Origin: a virus
Lineage: Duplodnaviria; Caudoviricetes
DNA: 61,934 nucleotides
Virus record (IMG/VR): IMGVR_UViG_3300037133_000055
Location: 1 to 61,934 of that record
Reading direction: 5' to 3' (one strand)
The first letter of the stretch is position 1, and each line of letters starts with the position of its first letter. The notes below the pieces were generated by a model that did not search any database, was not told the DNA's origin, and saw only the letters and a program-made list of their open reading frames with translations. Shown one piece after another: positions 9,315-58,466 of the stretch. The position numbers were made by a program, and so were the translations under genes.

Positions 9315-9411
9315 TGTTCCTCCTCTCTCTTGTTCGGCTGGTCGGCACACCCCCTCCTACTTGCCAGCCGAACACCTTTATTCTAGATTCTGCTAGGAGG
9401 GAACAACTATA
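9315..9411 (+). promoter_or_regulatory. Structured leader with anti-SD sequences
   Basis: 11-bp stem 9331-9341/9364-9374; loop CCCTCCTA is complementary to SD TAGGAGGG at 9394-9401. Confidence 0.6.
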
Positions 9412-10323
9412 AATCTTGATTATTCACCAAATATACAGTTCACTCTACCCCCTGCTACTGCAGGTGCCACAACCACGGCTACTACTACGGCAGCCAACGG
9501 TACAGTAACAACGACCACTTCTGGATCACAGTACTCCACTGTCATATCCCAGACTAACTCATATTCTTTGAGTAATACAATTAATCAGATAACTACTCTT
9601 CAGGCAAGTAATAACCTGTCAGGAGAATACTATAACGATGTCAACTCTGCTCTGGCTAATAGCCTGAGTATATTGAATGCGCAGTATGCTTATATAGGTA
9701 ATGACAATAGCGCATGGGCATCAGCCTTGCAGACATGGCAGACTCTCGATCAGACTGCAAGTGCTCAACAAGAATTAATACCATGGATCGCTCAGGTATA
9801 TCCTGATGAATATCCAGAATATACGGATGCAGTTATAAGTTATAACGGATTGCAACAGGACAGTGACAGCGCGCTACTTACCTTCCAGAATCTTAGTCAG
9901 ATAAACTTTTCTGTAGCTGATATGGTTAATGTACAGATGAGTTTTATTGAAGGACTAACCAACGTACTATCTGCTTCTATTATGACATCTGATGTTGATA
10001 GTTACATTACCGGTGCCTTAGCTGCATATCAACAGGCAAAGCTTGCGCCTGGTATTGCCAAGAACACATTGGTATATCGTATGACTAATGCAGCAAGACA
10101 AACAAAGCTCAGTAACTCATTACTGATTGCACAGCAGAGAATGCTCAGCCTTACTCCAACTATACGTTTGCAATTGACAAACGCAGATCAGGCAGCTGGA
10201 GTAACTACCCTTCAAGATCTCGCCGATGGTATCGACAAAGATTATTCTACGAAACTACTTGATCTATATAAGACTTACTCCATATATACGAATACTCTTG
10301 GGACATTGATTCAATCAGGCTAG
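9409..10323 (+). CDS. Hypothetical virion protein (Thr-rich N-terminus, helical); probable ATA start
   Basis: Frame is open 53 codons upstream of the track start, up to an ATA 7 nt after SD AGGAGGG. Confidence 0.75.
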   Translation: MNLDYSPNIQFTLPPATAGATTTATTTAANGTVTTTTSGSQYSTVISQTNSYSLSNTINQITTLQASNNLSGEYYNDVNSALANSLSILNAQYAYIGNDNSAWASALQTWQTLDQTASAQQELIPWIAQVYPDEYPEYTDAVISYNGLQQDSDSALLTFQNLSQINFSVADMVNVQMSFIEGLTNVLSASIMTSDVDSYITGALAAYQQAKLAPGIAKNTLVYRMTNAARQTKLSNSLLIAQQRMLSLTPTIRLQLTNADQAAGVTTLQDLADGIDKDYSTKLLDLYKTYSIYTNTLGTLIQSG

Positions 10324-10334
10324 GGGGAACTTAT

Positions 10335-11177
10335 ATCGCTAAGGTAGATATCGACCTTGAAAAGATACTAGAGGATCTTGGTATTGGGGCAAAGCAAGAT
10401 AACGGAACAATCGAAAAGAAGATCTGGTTGCACGACTATTCTGATTTGCCAAGCATGCAGCTCGTACCTCTTGCAGATTGGCATGATGGTAGCTGTGGTA
10501 CCAATCATACATTTATAAATAGTCTTGTGACCTACTGCTTAGCCAACGAGGATTGCTATGCCGTTGGCGTGGGTGATCTAGCGGAGAATGCTACAAGGAC
10601 TTCTGTTGGTGCTGGATTCTTTGAAGAGAATGTCCACATCCAGGATCAGATGGACAACCTATATGAACTGCTTGCGCCACTGGCTGCCACTGGTAGGTTA
10701 TGGGGATTAGAAGAAGGTAACCACTGCTTCCGAACAACAGCGTTACTTGGTCTACATCCAATGAAGATTGTAGCTGATAGATTAGGAGTTCCTTTCCTTG
10801 GATACACTTCCTACCATTTAGTTAAGGTTGGTATGCAGCAGTATCGTGTCTTCGTTGGACATAATGCAGGCGGTGGTGGCCGCACCATGGCTGCCAAATC
10901 CAGGGCTGCAGAAAACCCCAAGGATGTTGCTGACTGTGACATTTACATAACTGGTCATACCCATTTTCTTGGTCACCATAGAGCAACGCATTTTGAATTT
11001 GATGAAGACAATCTGGTTATGCGTGAACGTATGCGTTACTTTGTGTCATGCGGATCTGCGCTTAACTACTTTAATAGTTATGCAGAGATGTCAATCTTAC
11101 CACCGTTATCTATTGGTGCTCCACTTATGGTATTCAAAGGTGGTCCGCAATGGGGCATTCGCATCATAGATGATTGA
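10335..11177 (+). CDS. Calcineurin-like metallophosphoesterase; probable ATC start
   Basis: Motifs DWH, GDL, GNH, GH, GHTH; frame open to ATC at 10335 after SD GGGGGA. Confidence 0.85.
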   Translation: MAKVDIDLEKILEDLGIGAKQDNGTIEKKIWLHDYSDLPSMQLVPLADWHDGSCGTNHTFINSLVTYCLANEDCYAVGVGDLAENATRTSVGAGFFEENVHIQDQMDNLYELLAPLAATGRLWGLEEGNHCFRTTALLGLHPMKIVADRLGVPFLGYTSYHLVKVGMQQYRVFVGHNAGGGGRTMAAKSRAAENPKDVADCDIYITGHTHFLGHHRATHFEFDEDNLVMRERMRYFVSCGSALNYFNSYAEMSILPPLSIGAPLMVFKGGPQWGIRIIDD

Positions 11178-11196
11178 GGACTAGCGAGGTTGTTAT

Positions 11197-13191: not shown

Positions 13192-13196
13192 CTGAA

Positions 13197-14564
13197 TTGA
13201 AGAAGTATCCCAGTGTACAAGTAGACCAGTTTAGATTAGAGAACCTCTTGCCGACTGGATGGCAGGTTCAGGAAGCAGATGGCAGTAAGAAGAACCTGAT
13301 CTGCGATATTGAGGCTATTCATGCCTGCACTACCGGCAATTTCAATACCTATACTACCGAAGAACTTCGTAAAGCACTGCCTACCTGGACGAGTCCTTAT
13401 CATAAACCAATCTTGACTCATCACAATACCCGCGACGGAGAGCCAATCGGCAGGATACTTGATGCCAGAATGGGCTATTCGGAACAGGCCAAGCAAGATT
13501 GCGTGGTAATAAGAGTTGAAATCTCAGACGCTGAGTCCATGCAGAAGGTTAAGGACGGCCGCTACATTACAGTCTCGATTGGAAGTAGAACATCAAAGGC
13601 TATCTGTTCTATCTGTGGACAGGACATCATAGCTGAAGGCTACTGTGACCACGAGGCCGGGGAAGTTTACAACGGTAAACAGTGCACAGTATTACTCAAA
13701 GGCATTACTCATAATGAAGCTTCTTTTGTCAATGTCCCTGCCGATAACAACGCACAGGTAGTCGGCATTGTCAGTGAAGGTTATTTGTTTGGAAGTGACA
13801 GTCTGGTCAGCTTGTCTGATCCAGGCACTAATTTGTTAGAGCACCAGGGCGGTATGCAAATAATGGAGGCTCTAGGCATCAAGGAGGTTGAACAGTTGCA
13901 CGTTTTGCAAGAAGCGCATGATACATTACACACCCAGTTCACTGCAGGACCAAGCGATGCATTGCGTGATGCCCATGCCGAGATTGTACGGCAGATGCTT
14001 GGCGCCACGATTGAACATGCGATGACAGACGCTCTCGACGAAACACTGCCAGAGGATTTGCGTCCAGTTATTGAAAATGCTCCACTTGATTTTGGTAAGT
14101 TCGCTGAACTCTTGGCTCAGTCTGGGCGCGACCTGGAAGCTGTCAATGTAAGTCTGGCTGCTGTAACTCTAGAACGAGATGCGGCTAAGACTGAGGCAGA
14201 GAAGCTGACCTTAGAGAATGAGACTCTTCAGGCCACTGTCACACAGTTAGGTGAACAGCTGGTTACGGTAGAGACGGAAGTCCGCCAGGTATTGGCCGAA
14301 CAACTGGTTGAGTTGGCATTGCCGGCACCAGAAGACCATGCTGTTGCCGTAGGAGAGTTTGTTGTAAAGTCAAAAGATGTTCTTCGGGAATTGCTGACAG
14401 AGTCTCGTAAGCAATTCAAAGAGCTGTATGTTGTTAAAGATCCTACTCTTTCTAATGAGGATCTGCCGGACACTTCTGAAGCAACGGCAACAGCTATGCG
14501 GGTAGAGGCGTTCTCTGGTTTATTTAGAGGACCATCCCGTGCAATAACAAAGGAGGTTAAATAG
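13197..14564 (+). CDS. Prohead protease/scaffold
   Basis: PILTHHN..PIGR, VSIGS, CSICG..CDH, EASFVNVPAD; C-terminal coiled coil; TTG start. Confidence 0.85.
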   Translation: MKKYPSVQVDQFRLENLLPTGWQVQEADGSKKNLICDIEAIHACTTGNFNTYTTEELRKALPTWTSPYHKPILTHHNTRDGEPIGRILDARMGYSEQAKQDCVVIRVEISDAESMQKVKDGRYITVSIGSRTSKAICSICGQDIIAEGYCDHEAGEVYNGKQCTVLLKGITHNEASFVNVPADNNAQVVGIVSEGYLFGSDSLVSLSDPGTNLLEHQGGMQIMEALGIKEVEQLHVLQEAHDTLHTQFTAGPSDALRDAHAEIVRQMLGATIEHAMTDALDETLPEDLRPVIENAPLDFGKFAELLAQSGRDLEAVNVSLAAVTLERDAAKTEAEKLTLENETLQATVTQLGEQLVTVETEVRQVLAEQLVELALPAPEDHAVAVGEFVVKSKDVLRELLTESRKQFKELYVVKDPTLSNEDLPDTSEATATAMRVEAFSGLFRGPSRAITKEVK

Positions 14565-14565
14565 T

Positions 14566-16026
14566 TTGAGCATGATCGATTATGGCGTTAGTGGACAGTC
14601 GATTTTCTCACCGGAAGGCAACGGCCTTATCGGCGGTTATCAGGCCGTCCCCTCCACGCCGCAAGATATTAAGCGGACACAGACCAGGCTAGTCCTGAGC
14701 GAAAATTGGAGAGCAGCCGAGAAGTGGTTGCTTGATCCGAGACTTCCAGATTTGTTCCAGTATCAGTTTGGCGGCCCATGGTGGGTAGTGATTCCGAAGG
14801 GCAGAATCCTCGGAGTAGCCACCAATGGTGGACCGAACAACGATGGTCTGATGAATGGCTACATTTCTCGGTTGCTGTTCAACGCATTGACCTTCGCAAA
14901 CGGCGGCGTGAGTATTACCGGCGAGACCGATAATACTAGTACCTCTACACCTCCGGGTACCTATACCCGTACAGCCAATCGTCCTGTGGGCGTGGCTGCG
15001 AACAACATCATCGAGCAGCGTCCCGATGACATGGCTGATATTCTGCCAGATGTGTTGCCTCGTGGTTCTTACATCGAGCTGCCTCTGATTGATAGCCAGG
15101 CCAATGCAGAACAGATTCAATGGGGTTCAGCATATGGAGTACTGCACGGCGGCGACTTGCTCATGTCCGATGCTTATGGACGTTTCGTTGAGTGGCAGGA
15201 ATATCCTACACTGACTCAGACTATCAACGTAACCTCTTCTGCTGGCGGCGTCGCCACAGTGAACGTTGATCAGCCGATCAAGAACTACGTACCGCTCGGT
15301 CAGACCTACCCTGTGACCGTTTCGGTAGTGAATCATGTGGCTCAGACCATCGTTTCTGGCGCTGAGATTACTGGCGTTGCTTGTGCTGCTGGCGCTGTCA
15401 CTTTGGCAGACCTTGGCACCAGCGCTAATGTAGACGTAACCGTGACCTATGTCACTGCCATTGGTCAGAACTATGACCAGGTAATTGGCCAGGTCTGTGC
15501 GATTGATCCGAACCTTCCACCCGAAGGATGGCTGCGTTGGGTTGAGTGGTCGATGCAACAGAAGATGCAGTCATGGGAATACATCTCTTGGGGCTATCGT
15601 CCTGAAGACATCTCCACCGGATATCCGTATTCTAACCGGTTCCAGGGTCGTATCCTTGGTGACTTACCTGGCCTTGGTATCCCTGGGCTGACCAATGGTT
15701 CTAACATTGAAGTAGCCTATACCAATGTCAAGGTTGGAGTTATTCCGGCCAACCTGCCTGCTGGTTCAATGTTCGATGTATACCTGCCGAACAAGCCGCT
15801 GGTAACGTCTACTCTTTCGCTTACCGTTGGAACGACTGCTATTACCGGCACTAACCTGGTCTTCACTGACCCAGTTTCCGGTTTGGTGCGATTCACTACT
15901 GCTGATCAGTCTGCAGTTGATCGCCCGATCCTGGCAAGCTATAGTGCAACAGGACAGATTCCCGGCGTGCCTACTAACATCGACTTTGTCGGTGCTGTCG
16001 GTGCAGTTCGGATAATGTTGATCTAA
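14566..16026 (+). CDS. Capsid-associated (decoration/cement) protein
   Basis: Lies between protease and capsid genes; beta-rich with Ig-like inserts. Confidence 0.6.
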   Translation: MSMIDYGVSGQSIFSPEGNGLIGGYQAVPSTPQDIKRTQTRLVLSENWRAAEKWLLDPRLPDLFQYQFGGPWWVVIPKGRILGVATNGGPNNDGLMNGYISRLLFNALTFANGGVSITGETDNTSTSTPPGTYTRTANRPVGVAANNIIEQRPDDMADILPDVLPRGSYIELPLIDSQANAEQIQWGSAYGVLHGGDLLMSDAYGRFVEWQEYPTLTQTINVTSSAGGVATVNVDQPIKNYVPLGQTYPVTVSVVNHVAQTIVSGAEITGVACAAGAVTLADLGTSANVDVTVTYVTAIGQNYDQVIGQVCAIDPNLPPEGWLRWVEWSMQQKMQSWEYISWGYRPEDISTGYPYSNRFQGRILGDLPGLGIPGLTNGSNIEVAYTNVKVGVIPANLPAGSMFDVYLPNKPLVTSTLSLTVGTTAITGTNLVFTDPVSGLVRFTTADQSAVDRPILASYSATGQIPGVPTNIDFVGAVGAVRIMLI

Positions 16027-16052
16027 CGTTACGCAAAGGAGGAAATCAAGAG

Positions 16053-17135
16053 TTGGCTTACACAATTGAAGAAAGAGCTAAGGCAATGCTCAGTCATTCT
16101 ACTGATATGAAGCCGGACGACATGGTAACAATCAAGGAAGTACTGAGCACTGCTGATGCAAGTATATTAGTACCGCAAGTAATCGTAGGTGTAATGCGTG
16201 AAGCAGCTGAGCCGATCTATATCGGCTCCAAGCTTCTGCAGCGTATCGACATCCAAGGCCCTGGCCGTATCGTGACGATTCCTGTCATGGGCGAGATTAG
16301 GGCTCATGATGTAGCAGAGGAAGGTCCGTATACCGAGGAGAGTCTGGACTTCGGACTCCAGACTGCACATGGTGCCATTAAGGTTGGCAAGACTGGTCTT
16401 AAGGTCAGCCTGACTGACGAGATGGTTGAAGAGTCACAGTGGGATGTTGTAGGCATCATGTTGCGTAAGGCTGGCCGTGCAATGGCCAGACTCAAAGAAG
16501 AGAAAATCTTTGAGATGTTTGGTCGTCAGGGACACCCCCTGTATGATAACTCTATCATCAATGAATATCCCCAGGCACAGACTACTGGCCGGGATTTCTA
16601 TGGTCAGTATAACAACACTCTTTCGACACTGGACTTTGTCGAGATGGTGCTGGCTGTAATGATGAGTGGTTTCGTTCCGACAGACGTACTCATGCCTACC
16701 TTGGCCTGGCTGGTCTTTGCGAAGAACGAATTGCTTGGGCAGCTGCCTTTCGGCGCTCTCGGCGGGACCCCGGGCCAGATTCAGATCAGCCCGAACTCTG
16801 TACAGGGTAGAGTCCCGATGCCTCTTGAAGTAAACCTTTCACCGTTTATCCGCTTCGACAGAACCAACATGCTGTACGATATGTATGTTTTGGATCGTAA
16901 CGAGGTTGGTCTGATGGTTGTAAAGGAAGACATCTCCGTTGAGAAGTGGGCAGACCTTGAACGTGACATCCAGAACATCAAGGTTAAAGAACGTTATGGA
17001 TGCGGTATGTTAAATAACGGCATGGGAGTAGCAGTTGCGAAGAACCTAGCGTTCCAACTCAGCTACGAGTTGCCTCATCGTCTTATCACCATGGATGCTG
17101 CCAACGTGTCTCCTGCACCAAGCAACGCCTGGTAA
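16053..17135 (+). CDS. Major capsid protein (HK97 fold)
   Basis: LVPQVI, E-loop-like HDVAEEGPY, KTGLKVSLTDEMVEESQWDV, KERYG; strong SD with TTG start; followed by a terminator. Confidence 0.88.
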   Translation: MAYTIEERAKAMLSHSTDMKPDDMVTIKEVLSTADASILVPQVIVGVMREAAEPIYIGSKLLQRIDIQGPGRIVTIPVMGEIRAHDVAEEGPYTEESLDFGLQTAHGAIKVGKTGLKVSLTDEMVEESQWDVVGIMLRKAGRAMARLKEEKIFEMFGRQGHPLYDNSIINEYPQAQTTGRDFYGQYNNTLSTLDFVEMVLAVMMSGFVPTDVLMPTLAWLVFAKNELLGQLPFGALGGTPGQIQISPNSVQGRVPMPLEVNLSPFIRFDRTNMLYDMYVLDRNEVGLMVVKEDISVEKWADLERDIQNIKVKERYGCGMLNNGMGVAVAKNLAFQLSYELPHRLITMDAANVSPAPSNAW

Positions 17136-17210: not shown

Positions 17211-17996
17211 TTGGAAGCTCCTTATGTAATGCTCACATCGCCTAATAATGGAGATACAGATATCGAGCCTACTGCTCCGATCAAGGTATGGTTTAACCAT
17301 GACCTAAATCCCGGGACAGTTACAGCAGCTACATTAATGCTGTTCGATATTACAAACAGTGTTGTTGTATCTGGAACAGTAGAGTATTCACAGAAGGTAA
17401 TGACCTTCATACCTAACCAACCACTTAGTCTATCAACTCAATACCAGATAGTTATAATTGGTGGCGACGTAGGCATCAAGGATGTTTTTGGCTCAACTAT
17501 GATGCAGAACTATCAGGTTGTGTTCTTTACAGCAGGATCGACGCTAGTGGCAACACCATTGATAACTATACCGGCTGACCGTACTTTGATTAGCCAACCT
17601 TTCACAGTTGCCTGGACTGGCAGCCAAGCTCCATACGATGTACAGATTGCACTTGATGCAGCGTTCCAGAGTATCTACTGGCCGGTATCTGGCGATGATC
17701 TATCGGTGGTGCAGGCTTCAGAAGACGGCGGAAGTTTAATACCAGGACGTACATTTGCAGACGGATTCTATTATGTCAGAGTACGCTCCGAAGGTGGGGC
17801 ATGGTCTGGTACGATTGGATTTGCCGTAAGTGCTCTTTTACCATCTACGCCAATTGGGCCTCTTAATCTTGTAGTGGCTTCACCTTCACCATTTGCGGCC
17901 AACCAGGATGTGACTCAGTTACAGCTCACGTTTGATAGACCTATCAATGCTCTCAGCGCTAACACTGGAGTTTATATAGTACAGGTACCACTTTAA
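17211..17996 (+). CDS. Ig-like (Big_5/SbsA-type) virion protein
   Basis: TSPNNGDTD..IKVWFNHDL..TFIPNQPL..TQYQI pattern; ends with half of a second such domain. Confidence 0.75.
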   Translation: MEAPYVMLTSPNNGDTDIEPTAPIKVWFNHDLNPGTVTAATLMLFDITNSVVVSGTVEYSQKVMTFIPNQPLSLSTQYQIVIIGGDVGIKDVFGSTMMQNYQVVFFTAGSTLVATPLITIPADRTLISQPFTVAWTGSQAPYDVQIALDAAFQSIYWPVSGDDLSVVQASEDGGSLIPGRTFADGFYYVRVRSEGGAWSGTIGFAVSALLPSTPIGPLNLVVASPSPFAANQDVTQLQLTFDRPINALSANTGVYIVQVPL

Positions 17997-18019
17997 ATCG
18001 ACTATGGGAGGTGTCTTAA

Positions 18020-18790
18020 ATAGAACCTCTGATCATAGATAACAATCTGGAACACTGGGAGATACCTACTTCTGATGTTTATCCTATGCCTCAGAACGTT
18101 GTCAATGCACAGACCAGTGTGTTCGGATCTACAGTGACTCTTAATTTCGGACAGTTAGCTCCTAACTGTCGCTATGTAGTTGTAGTTACACCAGATCTTA
18201 CTGGGGTGGATGGAAGCTGCGCAGAATTTGGCGCCTACTACTTTACATCTACTTACACTCCACTGTATTGCTCTTATCAATCAGTACTCTCGGAGATTAT
18301 GGCTTTCTCAAATTTATTTACTCCACACCTTGTTTACGAAGCCATAAGAAATGCTAGCACTCAGGCAGACATGCTGATTCAGCAGGGCGGCATGGGTCCA
18401 GGGGTATCCCCCGCTCCATATAACATGAGGCCAACTCCCTATCCAACAGAGATAGTACAGTATGTAAAGTTCTGTGCTGCCTATTTACTAACTCTGCAGA
18501 TATCTATCTGGAAGAGCATGCTCAGCGGAGAGACTAAAGAACTCAATGATTTCACCGTCACCTATGGCCCCAATACTCTTGACCGGATGCTCAAGTATCT
18601 ACAGGAGGAGATGGAGCGTTGGCGTATCGCCATGAATGGATGGGCGCGAACTCGTTGGGTGGTCAGACATGGAATGATGGTACCGACTGGGTTACCAGTA
18701 CCGGGATGGTGCCGCAAACCTCTTGGCAGAGGAGAGGCTACTGGCCTCGAAGGTTCTGCTGCTGGCCGCTTTGGTGGTAGTACCTGGTGA
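18020..18790 (+). CDS. Probable head-tail adaptor/neck protein; probable ATA start
   Basis: SD GGGAGGTG then ATA directly after an in-frame TAA; YCSYQSV..AIRNAS..LNDFTVTY adaptor-like; position. Confidence 0.65.
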   Translation: MEPLIIDNNLEHWEIPTSDVYPMPQNVVNAQTSVFGSTVTLNFGQLAPNCRYVVVVTPDLTGVDGSCAEFGAYYFTSTYTPLYCSYQSVLSEIMAFSNLFTPHLVYEAIRNASTQADMLIQQGGMGPGVSPAPYNMRPTPYPTEIVQYVKFCAAYLLTLQISIWKSMLSGETKELNDFTVTYGPNTLDRMLKYLQEEMERWRIAMNGWARTRWVVRHGMMVPTGLPVPGWCRKPLGRGEATGLEGSAAGRFGGSTW

Positions 18791-19212
18791 AATTAAGAGA
18801 AGAGTTTAATAGATTCATTCGCGACAACAAGACATCAATAACCTACGTCAGGCGTAACACTCAGATCCGCTGTAAGTGCACAGATTTTTCCACACCGAAT
18901 CCTAACTGCCCAATATGTTATGGCACTGGTTGTCTGGTTAATGTGGAAAGACACCTGGCACGTAGGTCAAGATATTGGGGTTCGGACTCCATGCATGGAC
19001 TAATTCAACCTCAACCCCTCGGATACGTGGACTCCGATGCCTGGGTCTATTACCTCCAAGCAGATTCACAGCCGAAGGAAAAAGATTTAATCATCGACGA
19101 TAAGCATTACTTGATCAGGCGGGTTCACGCAGAGCGTGACGATGAGACGATAGCTTATTATCGTGTCGTGGCTGATGTCAATATTAGGGATGGTCAGAGT
19201 GATCACTTATAA
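18787..19212 (+). CDS. Probable head closure protein with a Zn-finger insert
   Basis: CKC..CPICYGTG; position. Confidence 0.6.
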   Translation: MKLREEFNRFIRDNKTSITYVRRNTQIRCKCTDFSTPNPNCPICYGTGCLVNVERHLARRSRYWGSDSMHGLIQPQPLGYVDSDAWVYYLQADSQPKEKDLIIDDKHYLIRRVHAERDDETIAYYRVVADVNIRDGQSDHL

Positions 19213-20277: not shown

Positions 20278-20844
20278 TTGATCGATCGTACAAAAGTTAT
20301 CCCAAGGTTACGAGCAAATACTCCAATGGATATGGCTGGCATGATCGATATGATCATCGCTCTCTGGCAAGAGGTTGGCAACAACGAAGTGGTTATGAAG
20401 TTTGCTGACATGAGTAAGTGGGAAGATTATCCTTGCGTTACTCTTCGAACAATCAGTTCAGTCTTACCCACCGACCAGAGAGAGCGTCGTCCAAGACATA
20501 GAGAGACAATTATTGACCCTGAGAGACAAGACGAATTTATTGAGATGCTTGGCCAGGTTCGAGAGAACATCATCGAGTTCAAGATCTATGCGCTTACGCC
20601 TGATGAGGCTGACATCTTGCATGAAAAGTTTGAAGACTTTCTGTTTATCTATACACCACACTTTACGCAGCAGGGTATTCAGAAATTCTATTTTTATAGG
20701 CAACTTGAAGATGGCCTGATTACTGAATGGCACAATCCAGTTATTACTAGGACTGTACAGTATCAGGTGCGCATTGAAAGAGTAACCTTTGTTCGCATGG
20801 GTGAACTCAACGATATTCATATTAGCATACAGCACCCGCTTTAA
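20278..20844 (+). CDS. Probable tail terminator/completion protein
   Basis: Immediately before the sheath; YPCVT..IEFKIYA..EAD pattern. Confidence 0.6.
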   Translation: MIDRTKVIPRLRANTPMDMAGMIDMIIALWQEVGNNEVVMKFADMSKWEDYPCVTLRTISSVLPTDQRERRPRHRETIIDPERQDEFIEMLGQVRENIIEFKIYALTPDEADILHEKFEDFLFIYTPHFTQQGIQKFYFYRQLEDGLITEWHNPVITRTVQYQVRIERVTFVRMGELNDIHISIQHPL

Positions 20845-45787: not shown

Positions 45788-45830
45788 TAGCACCGTCTGT
45801 AGATAACAACATTCTAAAGGAGTGTTTTCT

Positions 45831-48190: not shown

Positions 48191-50233
48191 TTGACTCAAA
48201 CAGTTTTTGCTTCGTACATAAATGGTGATGGATACATGCCGGCCGATATGATGCAACGGGATGCAGACTGGGTAGTACCAGGGGTACTGGCTAGCGCAGA
48301 CCTTCTAGTTACTGCACTTGGCGGCATGGCTGTTCAGGTGTCAGGATCTGCACAGGGTTCTGTTGGCGGCAATGCATGGCTACCAGGTGGCGTGAGATTT
48401 TATAATAGCGCACCTGCGACGCTGGCGATTGCAGCTAATAGCTCTGGCAACCCACGAATCGATCTTGTGGTGGCCGGTATAGATACCAGTGTTGGTAGCC
48501 CATATAATCCGACAGTGATAGTTATCACAGGAACACCAGCAGTTTCTCCGACTGTTCCTGCACCCATCAATACACTTACTCCATATATCCCTCTGGCACA
48601 GGTTGCTGTTGCAAATGGAACATCATCCATTGTGGCTGGCAATATCACGGACGTGAGGACCAGGGCAGGAATGTATACGCCTAACGGGATGGTACTCAGT
48701 GCCGTTGATCCTGGAACAGGTGGTGCTAACGTCTATATTGCCAATCCCTATCCTGCATTCACTGCCCTGACTGACATGATACCGATAGCTGTGAAGATAG
48801 CTACCACATCTACAGGCGCCTCAACCTTAAATGTAAGTGGCCTCGGTGCAAAGGCCATCCTTGATAGCTTCGGAAATGCAATCACTGCCGGTGGCCTGGT
48901 TGCTGGAATCATCTATACATTCAGATATAATGCCACTACATCAAGTTTTATTGTACAGGGTAAAGGAGGCGGTGGCACTGCGGTAGCCAGTCAAGTGCTG
49001 ACTGGAAGTACATTCTCTAATAACTCAGGTGCAAACATACCTGGCACTATGCCCAACAATGGAGCTACTAGCTTCCCGCCACAGGCGTATGCGCAACTTA
49101 TCCCAATCGGATACTACAATGGACTGGGCCAAGTGCCTAGCGTTACTGGATCAGCAACTACTGCAAATGTACTTACTGGATATTCTTTTTGTAGCGGTAC
49201 CGGGGTGGGTCAGTCAGGTACTATGGTTAACCAGGCAGCAAAAAGTTACACGCCTTCAACGTCAGTACAAACAATCACTGCTGGTTATTACAACGGTAGT
49301 GGTACGATTGCAGCAGCTACACTTGCAACAGGTACGGCAGCCGCTGCTCAGGTTTTAACTGGCTATACATTCTCCAATGCTTCTAGTTCTGGCATATCTG
49401 GCACCATGCCAAACAACGAGCAGGTAACAGCTACATCCATTGGATTAAACGCACCAGGAACACTTTATTCAAAACCGCCAATGGGATACTACAGTGGAGA
49501 CAGCAACTGCTGGTTAGAGACATATGATGCAAACTTTACGGCAGCCAATATTTCTTCCACCTCAGAGGTCTTTGGTATATCTGGTTCTTACTACTCGCCA
49601 CATGGAACACAGACATTCACTGGTAATGGAACTTTCACAGTCCCTGCTGGAGTCAATCAGGTTATTGCTTATGTTGTTGGTGGTGGTGGTGGAGGTGGCT
49701 GGGGTACTACATACGGTGCTTTCGGCGGTAATGCAGGTACTGAGGCTCTTGTAATTATTCCAGTGTCTCCTGGACACGTTCATACTGTAACAACCGGTAC
49801 TGGTGGAGCTAGCGCTACCACAAAAGCGCATAACGGAACTGCAGGTACAGCATCATCAATAACTGGAAATGGTGTAACAGTATCTTGTCCCGGTGGAGCT
49901 GGTGGTTCCGATGCTGTACTAAGTGGTTATCCTCCTGCGGCTAGTGGTGCTACTGTTAGTGGGGCGACTGTAATACTTACTTCTACGTCGTACTCTAATG
50001 GTTGCGGCTATAACTCTAATGGTTGCGGCCAATTAGCTACAATTCTTTCAACAGTTGTAGGTGGTGTAAGTGGCGGTAGCTGTTTAGCAGGCGTTGGTGG
50101 TGGTGGTGTGACTTCTAGTGGTGCAGTAGGTCTTGGTGGCGGCTATGGTTGGGGTAACGGTGGCGGTGCTAATGCAGCTGAAGGCCCTTTTTCCGGTAGT
50201 GTTGGTAATGGAGAAGTAATATTTATTTGGTAG
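48191..50233 (+). CDS. Tail fibre protein with a Gly-rich C-terminus
   Basis: NPRIDLVV..PLAQV..ITDVR N-terminus; repeated VLTG.TF..GTMPNN; FTVPAGV..VGGGGGG; TTG start. Confidence 0.8.
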   Translation: MTQTVFASYINGDGYMPADMMQRDADWVVPGVLASADLLVTALGGMAVQVSGSAQGSVGGNAWLPGGVRFYNSAPATLAIAANSSGNPRIDLVVAGIDTSVGSPYNPTVIVITGTPAVSPTVPAPINTLTPYIPLAQVAVANGTSSIVAGNITDVRTRAGMYTPNGMVLSAVDPGTGGANVYIANPYPAFTALTDMIPIAVKIATTSTGASTLNVSGLGAKAILDSFGNAITAGGLVAGIIYTFRYNATTSSFIVQGKGGGGTAVASQVLTGSTFSNNSGANIPGTMPNNGATSFPPQAYAQLIPIGYYNGLGQVPSVTGSATTANVLTGYSFCSGTGVGQSGTMVNQAAKSYTPSTSVQTITAGYYNGSGTIAAATLATGTAAAAQVLTGYTFSNASSSGISGTMPNNEQVTATSIGLNAPGTLYSKPPMGYYSGDSNCWLETYDANFTAANISSTSEVFGISGSYYSPHGTQTFTGNGTFTVPAGVNQVIAYVVGGGGGGGWGTTYGAFGGNAGTEALVIIPVSPGHVHTVTTGTGGASATTKAHNGTAGTASSITGNGVTVSCPGGAGGSDAVLSGYPPAASGATVSGATVILTSTSYSNGCGYNSNGCGQLATILSTVVGGVSGGSCLAGVGGGGVTSSGAVGLGGGYGWGNGGGANAAEGPFSGSVGNGEVIFIW

Positions 50234-51166: not shown

Positions 51167-51227
51167 TAGATATGCTTGGATGCCAGCATATTAATCACCA
51201 CGGCGCATTGATAGGTGGTGCAACAAC

Positions 51228-52319
51228 ATAGCTAACGGTTTCTTTTTTCCATTGACTTTCGAACTTACATTTAATCCTGCATCAGGCGCCGGTGTTGCTA
51301 TTTCAGGCGGTGCTGCAACGGCTTATGTCATAGTATCTGAGATGATCTCAGGGGTAACTACTTCATTTGGGACAGTTACTGCCAATATACTGATTCCTGT
51401 AGTAGCTGTCGGAACATCTATATCTAATGGTAGTGTCGTTGAAGAGATTATAGTTACAGATATGGCTACTGCACAATCTGTATCATATGGCATAGCAATA
51501 GCAAATGTAGTTGTGGTATCTAGCATATCTAGTGCGACTGTAACGAATGGCGTAGCTATAGCAAATGTGCTTGTTGAAGATAACATAGCCGCAACTTCTA
51601 TATCAGATGCTCGAGCTACTGCCAATATCATAGTAGCATCACTTACTCTTGCAGAGTCCATAACAGGTGGCACTGCAACGGCCAATATAGATCTGGCATC
51701 CTCTGCTCTCGGATCTTCGGTGTCTGGTGGCAGTGCAATGGCATATATAAATATTATCGCCAATACTACAGGATCTTCTGTGACATTGGGTACTGCCTCT
51801 GCCAGTATTATTGTTGTGGCAGAATCAATAGCAATGTCGATCTCGTACAGTTCTGTTACAGATCGCATTGTTGAGCAAGACCAGGCCAGAGCTGTATCTA
51901 TTTCGGAGGGTACTTCCACACCTAACGTAATTGTTATTGTTCGTACCATGTCGCTTGCACGTGCCATGGCAAGGATTGTAATAGAGCCACCAATTACATC
52001 CATGTCGATCTCTGGCGGTAATGCTACTGCTAAGATATTGTCAACAAGATTAGTATCTGCCATCTCAATAACCAGGGCGTCAGCTACAGCTAACACTGCT
52101 TCTCCGTCTACGAAGACTGGCGTTGGTGCAGCGTCTTCAATTACCAGGGCAAAATCTACAGCAAAGATTATTGCCCCAAATAATGTTACTACGTCATTGT
52201 CGACTGGGGCACTTACTATTATAGGACCCAGTGGATGTCAGCTCGTATTCACGAATGATCCGATCAATGGTCGAGTTATTGTAGCCAACTGCGATAAGTT
52301 TGTGGCCCCTGGCCAGTAA
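51228..52319 (+). CDS. Ser/Ala/Ile/Thr-rich beta-repeat structural protein; probable ATA start
   Basis: SD AGGTGG then in-frame ATA; ~21-aa quasi-repeats (S.S.G.ATANI.V). Confidence 0.7.
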   Translation: MANGFFFPLTFELTFNPASGAGVAISGGAATAYVIVSEMISGVTTSFGTVTANILIPVVAVGTSISNGSVVEEIIVTDMATAQSVSYGIAIANVVVVSSISSATVTNGVAIANVLVEDNIAATSISDARATANIIVASLTLAESITGGTATANIDLASSALGSSVSGGSAMAYINIIANTTGSSVTLGTASASIIVVAESIAMSISYSSVTDRIVEQDQARAVSISEGTSTPNVIVIVRTMSLARAMARIVIEPPITSMSISGGNATAKILSTRLVSAISITRASATANTASPSTKTGVGAASSITRAKSTAKIIAPNNVTTSLSTGALTIIGPSGCQLVFTNDPINGRVIVANCDKFVAPGQ

Positions 52320-55141: not shown

Positions 55142-56809
55142 TTGTCTAATATTGCTACTAGAATAAATGATTTTATAGATAACAACACTCCGAGGAGTGC
55201 TAATGGCCGGGCACTGACTCATCGTACAAGTCACCCCGGCCTTGACGATCTCAGAATGACTGCTCCGCACCTAATGGGAACTACCGCCATCCCCAATCAG
55301 AGTTACAATGCTGCTGTTCTTTTAGCAGCAGATCCTGATGCATCTATTGCTGATCAAGGTCAGCTTGGTATCTGCAGTGCTAAGAGTTGTTGTAATGGAC
55401 CACTTGTAAAGATAGCTATTGACGAAGGTAAGTATAAAGAACCCTTCTCTGCATTCTTTACCTACTCGCTAGAGAATTACTATGGTGGAGATCCCGGCAG
55501 TGCTGGTGCAGACTATCAGACTCTCGGCAACGTTTGTAAGACATATGGTTCAGTAACAAACTCCATCATGCCAGACAGTGGACAGACGACCGATATTAAT
55601 CTGCCCCTTCCTTCTCTAGCCTTAATGACTGAGGCTACCAAGTTTAAGACGCCAAGTTATTCATGGCTGGTTCAAGTGACTGATGATACTAGGTCGCAGG
55701 CCAGTGTCGATGCTATCTGCGCTGCGCTTGCCCAGGGCTATATTGTTCTATTCGGCATTATCGTTTGTGAAAACTTCATGGATGTAACTGGCCCTAACTG
55801 TGTTATCCCGATTCCTTCTGGCGATGTTTTAGGACTGCACTCAATTCGCATCATCGACTACAATTACACAACTCGTCAGTTCCTGATGTACAATACCTGG
55901 GGTGCTTCCTGGGGCGATAATGGTGCTGCCTGGATGAGCTTCGACTGGGTAACAGAAGGAACTACCCTTAGCAATGCATCCATAAGACACGGAGAGAAAC
56001 TTGCAGCTGCTTTGGGCGATACAGATACCTGGTGGTATGTCAATGATGCCTTCATCCTAATGGGATCGAATTCTCCTATCCCATCCCCTATTCCTGTTCC
56101 GGCTACACCAGTTGTCAAAAGTATTGTTGTAACACCAGAACTTGATACAATAGAAGTTGGAGCCACGGCACAGCTAAAGGCAATAGCGACGATGAGCGAT
56201 AATTCCTTAGAAGATGTAACTGATATAGTTAACTGGCAATCATGTGATCTAGACGTAGCCAATGTATGTGAAGGACTCGTTACCGGTATATCCCCAGGGG
56301 TGTCTAAGGTAGACGCCGAAGATGGTATGATATCTTCTGGTGCTACTATCACAGTGACTGCTGCCCCAACTCCAGCACCTAAGCCTGTTGGCGTAACCTA
56401 TGTGATCAATATGCAAGTAGGAGCTCCTACGTTTACAGCAACAGTTGGTAACATCACCAAAGGTTATACATTCTCAGCTCCTACAATTGACAGCGCCGGA
56501 AGGGCAACTGCAGAGATCAGCCCGCTCTTCACTGCGCTTGGTGCTATTGTAAATTACAATGCTGCCACGAAGCATATTGCTATCATCGAGCAAACTTCTG
56601 CAGGTGTAGAGTTTGAGATTGACATGGCAGTTGGTAGCCCTAACTTCAGCACACTGATTAATAAAACAACTGCTGATTGTGAATTTTGTATAGTCCCTTT
56701 CATTGATAGTGCTGGTCGTACAGTTGCAGAGATCAGCCCAATCTTCCAAGCAATCGGAGCAACTGTAACCTATAATGCAACTACAAAACAGATAGTTATC
56801 TGTAACTAG
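55142..56809 (+). CDS. Papain-like (C1A) cysteine peptidase + Big_2 Ig + two Cu-amine-oxidase-N-like domains
   Basis: DQGQLGIC, GLHSI..Y, NTWG.SWGDNG; SIVVTP..VGATAQLKA; P.IDSAGR.AEISP.F.A.GA.V.YNA twice. Confidence 0.8.
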   Translation: MSNIATRINDFIDNNTPRSANGRALTHRTSHPGLDDLRMTAPHLMGTTAIPNQSYNAAVLLAADPDASIADQGQLGICSAKSCCNGPLVKIAIDEGKYKEPFSAFFTYSLENYYGGDPGSAGADYQTLGNVCKTYGSVTNSIMPDSGQTTDINLPLPSLALMTEATKFKTPSYSWLVQVTDDTRSQASVDAICAALAQGYIVLFGIIVCENFMDVTGPNCVIPIPSGDVLGLHSIRIIDYNYTTRQFLMYNTWGASWGDNGAAWMSFDWVTEGTTLSNASIRHGEKLAAALGDTDTWWYVNDAFILMGSNSPIPSPIPVPATPVVKSIVVTPELDTIEVGATAQLKAIATMSDNSLEDVTDIVNWQSCDLDVANVCEGLVTGISPGVSKVDAEDGMISSGATITVTAAPTPAPKPVGVTYVINMQVGAPTFTATVGNITKGYTFSAPTIDSAGRATAEISPLFTALGAIVNYNAATKHIAIIEQTSAGVEFEIDMAVGSPNFSTLINKTTADCEFCIVPFIDSAGRTVAEISPIFQAIGATVTYNATTKQIVICN

Positions 56810-56822
56810 AAGGTGGACAATA

Positions 56823-57245
56823 ATGACACAGCCAGCTTTCCCTGAAAGTCCTAACGTTTCATGGCCTCCTGCACCACCTAACAAAAATAATATTACATCT
56901 GTGACAAATGACCCTATGAATTATCTGAAGGTCATGAGCACTACCGTGCTTGGCGCCAACGTCACCTTCACGTGGCCTTCGGTCAATAGGTTTGCTACCG
57001 CTCCTCGCGGAGATGTTGTAAACCTACCAATAGAAGCGTGGGCAGTAGTCAAGTCCGATCAGGCAGGTACACTATACCTTCAAGAATCTGAAGACCAAAT
57101 TACATGGACCAATACCATGACTCAGGCAGTGACCGCTAACAAGACTTTTAGTCCTGCACCAGATACATTCACCAAGCAATATTACCAGTGGCAGTATGTT
57201 AATGGTCCAGTTGCACAGACGACATTCACACTCTTAGTTGGATAG
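56823..57245 (+). CDS. Hypothetical beta-rich virion protein
   Basis: SD; SDQAGTLYLQES.D..TW..YVNG..AQT.F.L. Confidence 0.7.
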   Translation: MTQPAFPESPNVSWPPAPPNKNNITSVTNDPMNYLKVMSTTVLGANVTFTWPSVNRFATAPRGDVVNLPIEAWAVVKSDQAGTLYLQESEDQITWTNTMTQAVTANKTFSPAPDTFTKQYYQWQYVNGPVAQTTFTLLVG

Positions 57246-57257
57246 ACGAGGGATACT

Positions 57258-58466
57258 GTGGCTACATACACCAGCAACTTAGGATTAAAAATAATAGCTG
57301 GTCTGAGTATAACGTGTCTTAAGTACACACGTTATACTCCGGCTACAGTACCTCCTGGTTATGAGAGTTACTATGCTCAGCTTGGTGGTAATGCCAGCAC
57401 AGTAACCCTATCTGGAGATTACCTTGCGTGTCCAGTCACTCTCTCCATAGTGCCGCAATTAGCTACGGAACAGATCATGGTAACGCAGATCCGTAAGGAG
57501 ACTGTTCCTGCGATCGATGTTAGCAATAGTAGAACATACTATGACCCAAGAGTGACGGATATCATCTTCAGTTTCAGTTCGATCATTCCTGCATTTAATG
57601 TGCAGTTAGACTTGAATAGTATTTTCCTTCCTATCAATATTGGCAGGATGGAGATCATGATTCTCCACAATGGACAATGGGATACTATGGACAGCCAGAT
57701 ATCTGATGGTGTCATCAGTTTTGCAGCGACTCCGGGTACCTATGCTGTATGTCTCAATGTCTATGCATACTCTTCATTGACACAGCGCATGGCTAATCTT
57801 CTGCCGTCATGGATGGCCATTAGAACTAATCCATCTTCTACTGGCCAGCAGTTCTTAAACTACTTCGGCGTTGAACTTGATGACGTAAATGGTTACCTGG
57901 ACTGGACATTAGGAAACTTCTTTATTGGCAGTGCAGATACTAACATGCTTGATCACGCATACCGTGGAGTATTCCCTACCAATATGCAGCCAGGCCAGCC
58001 GGCAAAAGTTATTGGCAACGATCATCAAGTTGCTATCATCACTGATCAATATGAGTTTATGCGCTCCAATAGTCAGGTTGTTTTGTTTGATTACGTAAAT
58101 GGACTTATTCATACCAAGGTGCCGTACCAGGGATATCTACTCGTAGTCTATAACAACCATGAGTACACAGTAGACCTTGCCTATCATCAGGTATGGAATG
58201 CCTTTGATGAGTTTGCTTTGTTGCTAGGTGTTACACGTTGGTCAGGCGAAGCCAACTCTGATCTACGTGAACGAATTCTAGATGTCTTCAGGTATCCGGC
58301 CAATGCTACGCAGCTTGGCCTATATCAATCCATAGGACGTTCGTTGAATTTTGTTCGGCATGCTACCTGGCCAGACGATAGCGTGAACTTTGTTATCCAC
58401 GATCACAGTATCATTGATGGTACCGTACTTGTGGATGGAGTTCATGCTTCTATTGTTAGACTCTAA
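57258..58466 (+). CDS. Probable baseplate wedge protein
   Basis: LPSW..QQFLN.FG, AFDEFALLLG..R..GE.N..LRERI. Confidence 0.6.
   Translation: MATYTSNLGLKIIAGLSITCLKYTRYTPATVPPGYESYYAQLGGNASTVTLSGDYLACPVTLSIVPQLATEQIMVTQIRKETVPAIDVSNSRTYYDPRVTDIIFSFSSIIPAFNVQLDLNSIFLPINIGRMEIMILHNGQWDTMDSQISDGVISFAATPGTYAVCLNVYAYSSLTQRMANLLPSWMAIRTNPSSTGQQFLNYFGVELDDVNGYLDWTLGNFFIGSADTNMLDHAYRGVFPTNMQPGQPAKVIGNDHQVAIITDQYEFMRSNSQVVLFDYVNGLIHTKVPYQGYLLVVYNNHEYTVDLAYHQVWNAFDEFALLLGVTRWSGEANSDLRERILDVFRYPANATQLGLYQSIGRSLNFVRHATWPDDSVNFVIHDHSIIDGTVLVDGVHASIVRL

What the first reader, a model, noticed from the sequence alone, without database searches (positions are those of the whole stretch)
9409..57260. Pervasive non-AUG initiation in virion genes, including ATA, ATC and CTG
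SD spacing points to ATA (9409, 18020, 51228), ATC (10335), CTG (45831), TTG (13197, 14566, capsid 16053, 17211, 20278, 48191, 55142) and GTG (18787, 19199, 23223, 57258). All three ATA genes also have SD-pairing sequence: the 9352 loop, ACCTCT at 18025, and CACCAC at 51196. IF3 normally discriminates against AUA/AUC, so this may be a stoichiometry code or reflect phage-altered initiation fidelity (inference).
Basis: partly seen in the sequence, partly recalled or inferred. Interest (0 to 1): 0.7.

Follow-up and report, generated by a model that had tools for sequence, protein, structure and literature searches.

The report
Phage genes starting at ATA/ATC codons
In this uncultured phage related to a Moorella phage, at least three genes begin at the weak start codons ATA or ATC behind strong ribosome-binding sites, a known way of starting translation that is unusually frequent here and makes gene finders cut these proteins short.

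Summary
All 16 claimed codons are at the stated coordinates. Each has the best or tied-best Shine-Dalgarno (SD) pairing among its in-frame alternatives.

Homologues show that three near-cognate starts are real N-termini:
- ATA 9409 and ATA 18020 align exactly with residue M1 of relatives that are 52% and 64% identical.
- ATC 10335 lies one codon before M1 of the MTATph1 and L167 homologues.
- Independent assemblies carry the same letters at these sites.

ATA 51228 and CTG 45831 rest mainly on SD evidence.

The TTG and GTG starts are ordinary for this Bacillota-type phage clade, and several are shared with relatives.

Internal ATA codons behave as isoleucine, so the genetic code is unchanged. 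The window holds no tRNA gene and no IF3 domain, but the contig is only about 28% complete.

Best reading: initiation at near-cognate codons driven by extended SDs, as shown for AUA/AUU starts in S. aureus (PMC13009471). It occurs here in 5 of 43 genes. The idea of phage-altered initiation fidelity remains untested.

Unchecked notes of this scan report similar ATA/ATC/ATT starts in other phages.

The parts
9395..9411 (+). Initiation region of gene A: a 7-nt SD (9395-9401), a 7-nt spacer and ATA 9409-9411. The in-frame TAG at 9394-9396 closes the frame just upstream.
   Evidence: SD duplex -11.6 kcal/mol; TTG 9568 scores -0.4.
9409..10323 (+). Gene A, 304 codons. It is a conserved protein of unknown function between the large terminase and the metallophosphatase, predicted mostly helical at low confidence. 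It starts at ATA.
   Evidence: M1 of relative P0009 (52% identity) aligns with the ATA codon. The MTATph1 and L167 homologues start at ATG and share the L-D-Y-x-P block. The extension has coding-type codon usage. Assemblies X2 and X5 carry the same letters, and 2 of 2 X5 changes in the extension are synonymous. Structure model pLDDT is 42.
10322..10337 (+). Initiation region of gene B: a G-rich SD (10322-10328) that overlaps the stop codon of gene A (10321-10323), followed by ATC 10335-10337.
   Evidence: -10.1 kcal/mol; the other in-frame candidates score -2.6 to -6.8.
10335..11177 (+). Gene B, 280 codons, a calcineurin-type metallophosphatase ('DNA repair exonuclease' PHROG). It starts at ATC.
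   Evidence: phrog_7339, E 2.5e-28. M1 of the MTATph1 and L167 homologues maps one codon after the ATC. In 12 of 13 aligned homologues, 5-13 residues precede the conserved N-terminal motif; the window has 7 if it starts at ATC. Assemblies X3 and X5 are unchanged at this site.
18002..18038 (+). Hairpin that pairs the SD of gene C with codons 2-4 and leaves ATA in the loop.
   Evidence: -12.9 kcal/mol, z -2.34, 4 of 200 shuffles fold as well. The MTATph1 sequence seen does not contain the pairing segment.
18006..18022 (+). Initiation region of gene C: an 8-nt SD (18006-18013), a 6-nt spacer ending in an in-frame TAA, and ATA 18020-18022.
   Evidence: -15.4 kcal/mol. MTATph1 has the same layout (SD, then C-T-T-A-A) followed by ATG.
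18020..18790 (+). Gene C, 256 codons, a conserved protein between the capsid block and the sheath genes, function unknown. It starts at ATA.
   Evidence: M1 of relative P0007 (64% identity) aligns with the ATA codon, and 18 of the next 21 residues are identical. The first ATG (18086) lies inside a conserved block. Assembly X2 is identical over 17396-18145. Structure model pLDDT is 35, so it was not used.
45816..46679 (+). PhoH-like ATPase gene with an SD at 45816-45822 and a probable CTG start at 45831 (282 codons).
   Evidence: PF02562, E 1.6e-26. SD duplex is -11.2 kcal/mol, against -5.1 for GTG 45822 and -5.9 for ATG 45858. The alignment to a longer phage PhoH runs from residue 11, upstream of the first ATG. 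There is no close relative to fix the N-terminus.
51213..52319 (+). Gene for a repetitive Ala/Ser/Thr/Ile-rich protein, with an SD at 51213-51220 and a probable ATA start at 51228 (363 codons).
   Evidence: SD duplex is -11.6 kcal/mol, against -3.4 for TTG 51252. Coding score is 0.30 per codon on + frame 0 and 0.23 for an antisense frame. No homologue was found.
13197..14564 (+). Gene with a TTG start.
   Evidence: SD -13.7 kcal/mol, against -4.0 for TTG 13248. MTATph1 and L167 carry an SD-led TTG three codons upstream of the equivalent position.
14566..16026 (+). Gene with a TTG start. ATG 14572, two codons later, is not excluded.
   Evidence: SD -13.3 kcal/mol at spacer 7. MTATph1 has GTG and L167 has TTG at the same distance from the SD.
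16053..17135 (+). Major capsid gene with a TTG start.
   Evidence: PF25209 and the major-head PHROG. M1 of the MTATph1 homologue aligns exactly at 16053. The best-SD candidate in L167 is a TTG (-15.7 kcal/mol).
17211..17996 (+). Gene with a TTG start.
   Evidence: M1 of the MTATph1 homologue aligns exactly at 17211. SD -9.6 kcal/mol, against -3.6 for ATG 17229.
18787..19212 (+). Gene with a GTG start.
   Evidence: M1 of the MTATph1 homologue (a TTG start) projects to 18787.
19199..20263 (+). Gene with a probable GTG start. ATG 19190 is not excluded.
   Evidence: It has the best SD of 5 candidates (-9.6 kcal/mol). M1 of the MTATph1 homologue projects to 19193.
20278..20844 (+). Gene with a TTG start.
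   Evidence: SD -11.5 kcal/mol, against -3.2 for ATG 20326. The alignment to MTATph1 begins at 20305, upstream of that ATG.
23223..23894 (+). Gene after the sheath gene, with a GTG start.
   Evidence: The N-terminal 56 residues are conserved with MTATph1 (67% identity in tblastn from residue 10). MTATph1 has an SD-led GTG upstream of its annotated ATG.
48191..50233 (+). Tail-fibre-like gene with a probable TTG start. ATG 48236 is an alternative.
   Evidence: SD -10.2 kcal/mol, against -8.9. Only internal homology was found.
55142..56809 (+). Gene with a probable TTG start.
   Evidence: SD -11.4 kcal/mol. The next ATG is 38 codons downstream and scores -4.5. No N-terminal homologue was found.
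57258..58466 (+). Gene with a GTG start.
   Evidence: The alignment to MTATph1 begins at 57366, upstream of the next canonical start at 57450, and M1 projects to 57264.

Best explanation
The window is a fragment of a large tailed phage of a Bacillota-type host, syntenic with Moorella phage MTATph1. Its genes are read by SD-dependent initiation.

Three genes start at near-cognate codons placed 6-7 nt after an extended SD: gene A at ATA 9409, the metallophosphatase gene B at ATC 10335 and gene C at ATA 18020. Two more probably do the same: the repeat-protein gene at ATA 51228 and the PhoH gene at CTG 45831.

Inference: the strong SD:anti-SD helix holds the ordinary host 30S subunit over the weak codon, initiator tRNA reads it with a third- or first-position mismatch, and the yield is lower than from AUG. 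For gene B, re-initiation by ribosomes terminating gene A 11 nt upstream may contribute.

The ATA and ATC codons are derived states. Relatives have Met or ATG at the same positions, yet the codons are present in every assembly of this phage population that I could check. They are therefore tolerated or useful settings, not errors. The TTG and GTG starts are the clade's normal usage.
For: Shown:
- The codons and SDs are as claimed.
- Gene A: M1 of P0009 aligns with ATA 9409. MTATph1 and L167 start at ATG just before the shared block.
- Gene C: M1 of P0007 aligns with ATA 18020, with 18 of the next 21 residues identical. MTATph1 has the same SD and spacer followed by ATG.
- Gene B: M1 of MTATph1 and L167 maps one codon after the ATC. 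A conserved N-terminal motif precedes the first canonical start.
- The extensions have coding-type codon usage, 0.25-0.40 per codon in frame and negative in the other + frames.
- Independent assemblies are unchanged at the sites: X2 and X5 at 9409, X3 and X5 at 10335, X2 at 18020. In X5, 2 of 2 changes inside the gene A extension are synonymous.
- No cluster member has a longer, canonically started form: 0 of 4 for gene C and 0 of 3 for gene A.
- ATA is decoded as Ile inside genes. Of 157 aligned ATA codons, 3% face Met, against 21% of 317 ATG codons.

From the literature, passages read:
- S. aureus uses AUA/AUU starts behind extended SDs at about 10-30% of AUG output (PMC13009471).
- In E. 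coli, AUA, AUC, AUU and CUG give 0.02-3% of AUG (10.1101/063800).
Against: - There is no direct evidence of translation. No ribosome profiling or N-terminal peptides exist, and RNA-library contigs cannot show initiation.
- ATA 51228 has no homologue, and a canonical TTG lies 8 codons downstream.
- CTG 45831 rests on the SD and on three conserved residues upstream of the first ATG.
- For gene B, a second ATC (10350) with a weak SD would also keep the conserved motif.
- My start choices were guided by the SD, so the finding that non-ATG starts have stronger SDs (p 0.007) is partly circular.
- I could not read the DNA of the 41-kb relative. Its 'M' may be ATG, GTG or TTG, and its gene B protein was called only from residue 103.
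- The host is unknown.
Confidence: 0.75

Rival explanations
1. Relaxed initiation fidelity. The phage, through a factor encoded in the missing ~70% of its genome, or its host lineage weakens IF3-type start-codon proofreading. AUA and AUC would then be efficient starts, perhaps only late in infection.
For: The density is high: 5 of 43 genes. My rough baseline is at most 6 of 375 conserved-gene instances in 80 related loci lacking a canonical start (Fisher one-sided p 0.003, or 0.055 with only the 3 homologue-supported sites). S. aureus ribosome profiling reported four such sites in the whole genome (PMC13009471).
Against: The window has no tRNA gene, no Rfam hit and no IF3 domain. All five sites carry extended SDs, which is what the ordinary mechanism needs. 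In relatives the sites hold ATG or Met, so no clade-wide habit is visible. The baseline compares unlike gene sets.
Confidence: 0.1
2. The real starts are the downstream canonical codons, and the upstream open stretches are untranslated leaders.
For: Gene callers chose these starts (P0006, 234 aa; P0008, 251 aa). For 51228 and 45831 the canonical codons lie only 8-9 codons downstream.
Against: For genes A, B and C the stretches are conserved at the protein level with relatives, whose N-termini coincide with the ATA or ATC. The downstream codons have almost no SD: -0.4, -6.8/-2.6 and -2.4 kcal/mol. The extensions have coding-type codon usage. ATG 18086 lies inside a conserved block.
Confidence: 0.07
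3. The codons are assembly or sequencing errors, or come from a defective variant in which start-codon mutations have silenced the genes.
For: ATG to ATA is a single transition, and metagenome assemblies can contain errors.
Against: Contigs from other runs and studies have the same letters. The ORFs are intact over 256-304 codons. The two variant positions within the gene A extension are synonymous. No longer, canonically started form exists among the cluster members.
Confidence: 0.03
4. The genes are reached by recoding rather than by their own initiation.
For: The terminase gene and gene A share a reading frame.
Against: In-frame stops sit directly before ATA 18020 and 12 nt before ATA 9409. 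Relatives start these proteins with M at the same positions, and MTATph1 has separate genes. ATA behaves as Ile inside genes.
Confidence: 0.03

Closest known systems
AUA/AUU start codons behind extended SD motifs in Staphylococcus aureus: infC AUA, ccpN AUA (also in B. subtilis), citZ AUA and cvfC1 AUU (Kohl et al. 2026, PMC13009471; abstract and passages read)
   Same: A near-cognate AUN codon sits a short distance after an extended SD. No canonical start is available. The expected effect is attenuated translation, about 10-30% of AUG in that study. The setting is a Bacillota-type, SD-dependent system.
   Different: Here the genes are phage genes, and 3 to 5 of 43 are affected, against four sites reported for a whole bacterial genome. 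The codons are not conserved in the nearest relatives, which have Met or ATG, whereas the ccpN and cvfC1 codons are conserved. AUC and CUG also occur here. There is no experimental evidence.
E. coli near-cognate initiation: AUA, AUC, AUU and CUG at about 1-2% (0.02-3%) of AUG (Hecht et al., 10.1101/063800; passages read). AUU starts of infC and pcnB (the pcnB title was seen in the reference list of PMC13009471; the infC case is mentioned there).
   Same: The same four codons are the recognised weak starts, and IF3 is the gatekeeper.
   Different: Those are reporter constructs or single regulatory genes. Here they are natural phage genes with much stronger SDs. No autoregulatory logic is evident, and no IF3 gene is in the window.
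Ordinary TTG/GTG start usage in phages of Bacillota: Moorella phage MTATph1 (OR602862.1) and the 173-kb contig L167, labelled as a Bacillota MAG
   Same: TTG or GTG starts of the 13197, 14566, capsid, 18787 and 23223 genes recur at equivalent positions in one or both relatives.
   Different: None of substance. This part of the finding is ordinary. Two MTATph1 annotations appear too short because such starts were missed.
Translational coupling with a non-AUG restart codon in B. subtilis (Peijnenburg et al. 1990). I saw only its citation as an ATA-start example in 10.64898/2026.10.01.756105. The subject of the paper is recalled, not read.
   Same: ATC 10335 lies 11 nt after the stop codon of gene A, and that stop sits inside the SD of gene B.
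   Different: Genes A and C and the genes at 51228 and 45831 begin 135, 23, 61 and 759 nt after the previous + strand gene. Coupling cannot explain them.

Membership tests
SD-directed near-cognate (AUA/AUC/AUU/CUG) initiation, as in S. aureus infC, ccpN, citZ and cvfC1 | No ATG, GTG or TTG is available upstream of conserved N-terminal residues | tested here: met
   Genes A, B and C. PhoH: weak support. Gene 51228: not testable because no homologue was found.
SD-directed near-cognate (AUA/AUC/AUU/CUG) initiation, as in S. aureus infC, ccpN, citZ and cvfC1 | An extended SD lies a short, fixed distance upstream of the weak codon | tested here: met
   5 of 5 sites score -10.1 to -15.4 kcal/mol, beyond the 5th percentile of the background, with 6-8 nt between the SD core and the codon.
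SD-directed near-cognate (AUA/AUC/AUU/CUG) initiation, as in S. aureus infC, ccpN, citZ and cvfC1 | The non-canonical codon is conserved among relatives | tested here: not met
   It is kept within the ~99%-identical population. The 52-64% relative has M, and MTATph1 and L167 have ATG. This feature is not defining for the mechanism: citZ AUA in S. aureus is also lineage-specific.
SD-directed near-cognate (AUA/AUC/AUU/CUG) initiation, as in S. aureus infC, ccpN, citZ and cvfC1 | Initiating ribosomes or N-terminal peptides are mapped to the codon, and output is reduced relative to AUG | not testable with these tools
   Only contigs of RNA libraries were available.
Altered genetic code with ATA = Met | Internal ATA codons align with Met in homologues | tested here: not met
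   The 157 aligned ATA codons face I 24%, L 24%, V 22% and M 3%. ATT codons face M 4% and ATG codons M 21%.
Phage- or self-encoded initiation machinery (IF3 or an initiator-like tRNA) | An IF3 domain or tRNA gene is present in the element | tested here: not met
   0 tRNA genes, 0 hits to PF00707 and PF05198 at E <= 1 and 0 Rfam hits. The contig is about 28% complete, so this is not evidence about the whole phage.
Termination-reinitiation (translational coupling) | The stop codon of the upstream gene lies within a few nucleotides of the restart codon | tested here: inconclusive
   Met for gene B only, with an 11-nt gap and the stop inside the SD. Not met for the other four sites.

The most novel reading that the evidence does not exclude
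The phage, through a factor in its unsequenced part, or its unknown host relaxes third-position start-codon proofreading during infection. AUA- and AUC-led genes would then be switched on or boosted at a particular stage. In that case the near-cognate codons act as a timing or dosage switch for packaging and head-completion genes rather than as simple attenuators.
Probability: 0.08. Interest if true: 0.85.

Novelty: new member of a known kind. Interest (0 to 1): 0.45.

Why it matters
Standard gene finders allow only ATG, GTG and TTG. As a result, the database proteins for genes A and C are 53 and 22 residues too short, and two genes of the named relative MTATph1 also appear mis-started. This affects any structural or functional work on these proteins.

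A set of three homologue-verified AUA/AUC starts, plus two candidates, in a single 62-kb phage fragment is much denser than the few cases documented per bacterial genome. It offers natural test leaders for measuring how far an extended SD can compensate for a weak start codon. If the density reflects changed initiation fidelity, it would point to a new kind of phage-host interaction. The evidence here does not require that.

Tried and rejected
- A megablast of 9300-18800 against GenBank phages found nothing. A tblastn of gene A and of the 51228 protein against phages also found nothing.
- A portal-based scan of viral contigs gave one distant 4-kb locus, which was not useful.
- To get the DNA of the 41,349-bp relative that carries P0007, P0009 and P0010, I scanned viral contigs and metagenome contigs with the gene C alignment. 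Neither returned a relative. The start codons of that relative therefore remain unread.
- A protein search with the 51228 protein scored 8000 candidates and found none at E <= 0.001.
- tblastn of the 48191 and 55142 proteins gave only internal, distant matches that say nothing about the N-terminus.
- Structure predictions for genes C and A had pLDDT 35 and 42. I ran no fold search and draw no function from them.
- A raw count of SD-preceded codons over the whole strand did not discriminate, and I dropped it.
- The idea that SD sequestration is specific to the ATA genes was rejected.
- ATA = Met was rejected.
- RNA-library contigs (X12) cover parts of 9300-23300 but cannot show initiation or even transcription.
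- Literature: no paper holds 'MTATph1'. The search 'ATA start codon' + phage listed 5 papers, none about phage structural genes. A six-term search on phage non-canonical starts gave nothing pertinent among the 12 papers listed. 'Peijnenburg' + 'restart codon' found 0 papers. I therefore do not claim that such dense use in a phage is absent from print; I only say that these searches did not find it. Supplementary files were not consulted. The supplementary tables of start-codon counts in Hecht et al. and the supplementary figures in Kohl et al. may bear on the baseline rates.

Full report
What the window is. The window is a whole IMG/VR contig of 61,934 bp that CheckV estimates to be 28% complete. 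It carries a large terminase gene (7621-9273), a portal gene (11197-13191), a major capsid gene (16053-17135) and a long + strand block of virion genes. The closest named relative is Moorella phage MTATph1 (OR602862.1). It is syntenic from the terminase through the sheath and baseplate genes at 23-62% protein identity, with 28 window ORFs matched. A 173-kb contig labelled as a Bacillota MAG (L167) shares the same module. The phage therefore belongs to a clade that infects Bacillota, where strong SD sequences and frequent TTG/GTG starts are normal (established knowledge). Contigs nearly identical to the window occur in 20 of the 24 listed sequencing runs, from peat, pond, freshwater and permafrost samples, in 18 studies.

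The observation. I built a 43-gene model of the + strand from 4823 to the end. The start codons are 27 ATG, 7 TTG, 4 GTG, 3 ATA, 1 ATC and 1 CTG. The starts were chosen using the SD and homology, so the tally is a model, not a measurement. For every claimed site, the SD:anti-SD duplex is the best or tied best among the in-frame alternatives (16 of 16 sets). The five near-cognate sites score -10.1 to -15.4 kcal/mol. The background 5th and 1st percentiles are -8.8 and -11.7 (4000 random positions). Non-ATG starts have stronger SDs than ATG starts (16 against 27 genes, one-sided Mann-Whitney p 0.007). Because the SD guided my start choices, this is only suggestive.

ATA 9409 (gene A). The frame opens at 9397, just after an in-frame TAG. 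The first canonical start, TTG 9568, lies 53 codons after the ATA and has no SD (-0.4 kcal/mol). A protein search returned 2 hits among 6102 candidates: the window's own truncated call (251 aa) and P0009 (308 aa, 52% identity) from a 41,349-bp contig. M1 of P0009 aligns with the ATA codon, and the next eleven residues are nearly the same in both. The MTATph1 and L167 homologues start at ATG a few codons before the same L-D-Y-x-P block. Codon usage in the 53-codon extension scores 0.28 per codon in frame, the same as the rest of the gene (0.27), and is negative in the other + frames. A contig of run X2 is identical over 9300-10206. A contig of run X5 differs at three places, 9432, 9537 and 9759. 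All three are third codon positions, and the two that lie inside the extension are synonymous.

ATC 10335 (gene B, metallophosphatase). The frame opens at 10272. The canonical candidates are TTG 10428, TTG 10446 and ATG 10455, with SD scores of -6.8, -2.7 and -2.6. BLASTP against MTATph1 (44% identity) starts at residue 29 of the open frame and residue 7 of the homologue. L167 has the same N-terminus behind an ATG. Counting back from the shared motif, M1 of both maps one codon after the ATC. I aligned the window protein with 12 of the 150 listed representative hits, picked from the top 21 by a length of 279-296 aa, plus MTATph1. In 12 of these 13 homologues, 5-13 residues precede the motif. 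The window has 7 if it starts at ATC. The SD overlaps the stop codon of gene A, so coupling is possible. A second ATC at 10350 would also keep the motif, but its SD is weak (-5.4). X3 and X5 contigs are unchanged at 10335.

ATA 18020 (gene C). An in-frame TAA directly precedes the ATA. The first ATG is 18086 (SD -2.4). The search returned 2 hits among 499 candidates: the truncated 234-aa call and P0007 (257 aa, 64% identity). P0007 begins with M at the position of the ATA, and 18 of the next 21 residues are identical. It has Arg where the window has the Met of ATG 18086. MTATph1 has the same SD-spacer arrangement ending in ATG. An X2 contig is identical over 17396-18145. The differences in X5 near this site were not all listed, so X5 is uninformative here.

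The two weaker cases. For ATA 51228 the only evidence is the SD (-11.6, against -3.4 for TTG 51252) and the gene order. The protein is repetitive, has no detectable homologue, and an antisense frame scores nearly as well in codon usage (0.23 against 0.30). For CTG 45831 (PhoH-like, PF02562), the SD is 8 nt upstream (-11.2). GTG 45822 overlaps the SD, and ATG 45858 has none. The alignment to the longer PhoH of Alicyclobacillus phage KKP_3916 starts at residue 11 and shows three identities before the first ATG. I rate these two sites at about 0.6 each.

The TTG and GTG starts. M1 of the MTATph1 homologue aligns exactly at TTG 16053 and TTG 17211, and projects exactly to GTG 18787. GTG 23223 is confirmed by a conserved 56-residue extension that MTATph1 also encodes behind an SD-led GTG; the GenBank annotation there starts too late. 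For the 13197 gene, both MTATph1 and L167 have an SD-led TTG at the homologous place. For 14566, MTATph1 has GTG and L167 has TTG at the same distance from the SD. TTG 20278 and GTG 57258 are supported because the alignments begin upstream of the next canonical codon. GTG 19199, TTG 48191 and TTG 55142 rest on the SD alone. This is ordinary usage for the clade. It also argues against a simple dosage code, since the capsid gene itself uses TTG.

Errors, recoding and code change. The same letters appear in contigs of other runs and studies. The studies may belong to one campaign, and run X1 was left out as a possible source of this DNA. Among the near-identical proteins in the large collection, none has a longer, canonically started form: gene C has 4 member sequences of 234, 234, 163 and 90 aa, and gene A has 3 members, all 251 aa. 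Internal ATA codons align with I, L or V and with Met in only 3% of 157 cases. For ATT the Met share is 4%, and for ATG it is 21%. The code is therefore standard. Stops directly upstream, together with the separate, Met-started homologues, argue against readthrough or fusion with the upstream genes.

Is the density unusual? I made two rough baselines.
- Of 80 viral loci that encode gene B homologues, 77 have a canonical candidate start. One (L137) probably starts at ATT behind a long SD, one (L105) has a frame break, and one (L110) is cut by the contig end.
- Across 375 instances of nine conserved genes in the 80 terminase-related loci, 6 lacked a canonical start upstream of the match. I dropped hits on L002-L004, hits on the minus strand and frames open to a locus edge. 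The six were not inspected one by one.
Against that baseline, 5 of 43 gives Fisher p 0.003, and 3 of 43 gives p 0.055. The gene sets are not equivalent, so this is indicative only.

Mechanism. No tRNA gene, Rfam family or IF3 domain is present, but about 70% of the genome is missing. The closest documented system is in S. aureus. There, ribosome profiling found AUA starts (infC, ccpN, citZ) and an AUU start (cvfC1), all behind extended SDs, giving about 10% and up to 30% of AUG output (PMC13009471, passages read). In E. coli the same codons give 0.02-3% of AUG (10.1101/063800). The five sites here have exactly that anatomy. I therefore read them as SD-driven near-cognate initiation by the ordinary host machinery. 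This would lower the output of proteins that are probably needed in small amounts (inference: an enzyme, PhoH, and two unknown proteins near the packaging and head-completion genes). Possible coupling adds to this at gene B.

SD-pairing hairpins.

Context from this scan. Unchecked notes of this scan report similar ATA/ATC/ATT/CTG starts behind strong SDs in several other phages. They agree with this reading but are not independent evidence.

Verdict. This is a new, unusually dense instance of a known kind of initiation. Its practical consequence is for annotation, and there is a small chance that it reflects altered initiation fidelity.

Noticed in passing
L004:6357-6520 (MTATph1 record about 21356-21518) and L003:6013-6070: Two GenBank CDS of Moorella phage MTATph1 appear to start too late. 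CDS0020 has a conserved 50-residue extension behind an SD-led GTG. CDS0006 has an SD-led TTG directly after a stop, 19 codons upstream of the annotated ATG.
   Followed up: partly
L137:3965-4010: A distant metallophosphatase homologue in another viral contig has no ATG, GTG or TTG before its catalytic motif. It does have a long SD followed after 6 nt by ATT, so this is another probable near-cognate start.
   Followed up: partly
L105:3611-3700: A metallophosphatase homologue in this locus reads its first catalytic motif in a different frame from the rest. This is a frameshift or an assembly error.
   Followed up: no
window 45831-46679: The PhoH-like protein lacks the N-terminal domain of about 125 residues found in its best phage homologues (Alicyclobacillus phage KKP_3916, Geobacillus virus E3). 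It follows a divergently transcribed minus-strand gene (45078-45734).
   Followed up: partly
window 51228-52319: The protein is a run of Ala/Ser/Thr/Ile/Val-rich repeats with no detectable homologue. A 257-codon antisense ORF (51323-52096) scores almost as well in codon usage.
   Followed up: partly
window 1685-2014, minus strand: The minus-strand ORF has an ATA at 1999 with a moderate SD duplex (-10.5 kcal/mol). Its first ATG (1948) has a weaker one (-6.0).
   Followed up: no
L167 (contig JBFLVI010000002.1, 173,402 bp): A contig filed as part of a Bacillota MAG carries the same terminase-to-capsid module as the window and MTATph1. Its size is similar to that of MTATph1, so it is probably a phage genome or prophage binned with the MAG.
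   Followed up: partly
window 9300-23300: Nearly identical contigs occur in peat, pond, freshwater and permafrost runs of many studies, including six RNA libraries. The phage population is widespread, and its variants are about 99% identical.
   Followed up: partly
L016:about 13930-14087: A portal homologue in a related viral contig has 52 open codons upstream of the match with no canonical start codon. I did not inspect it further.
   Followed up: no
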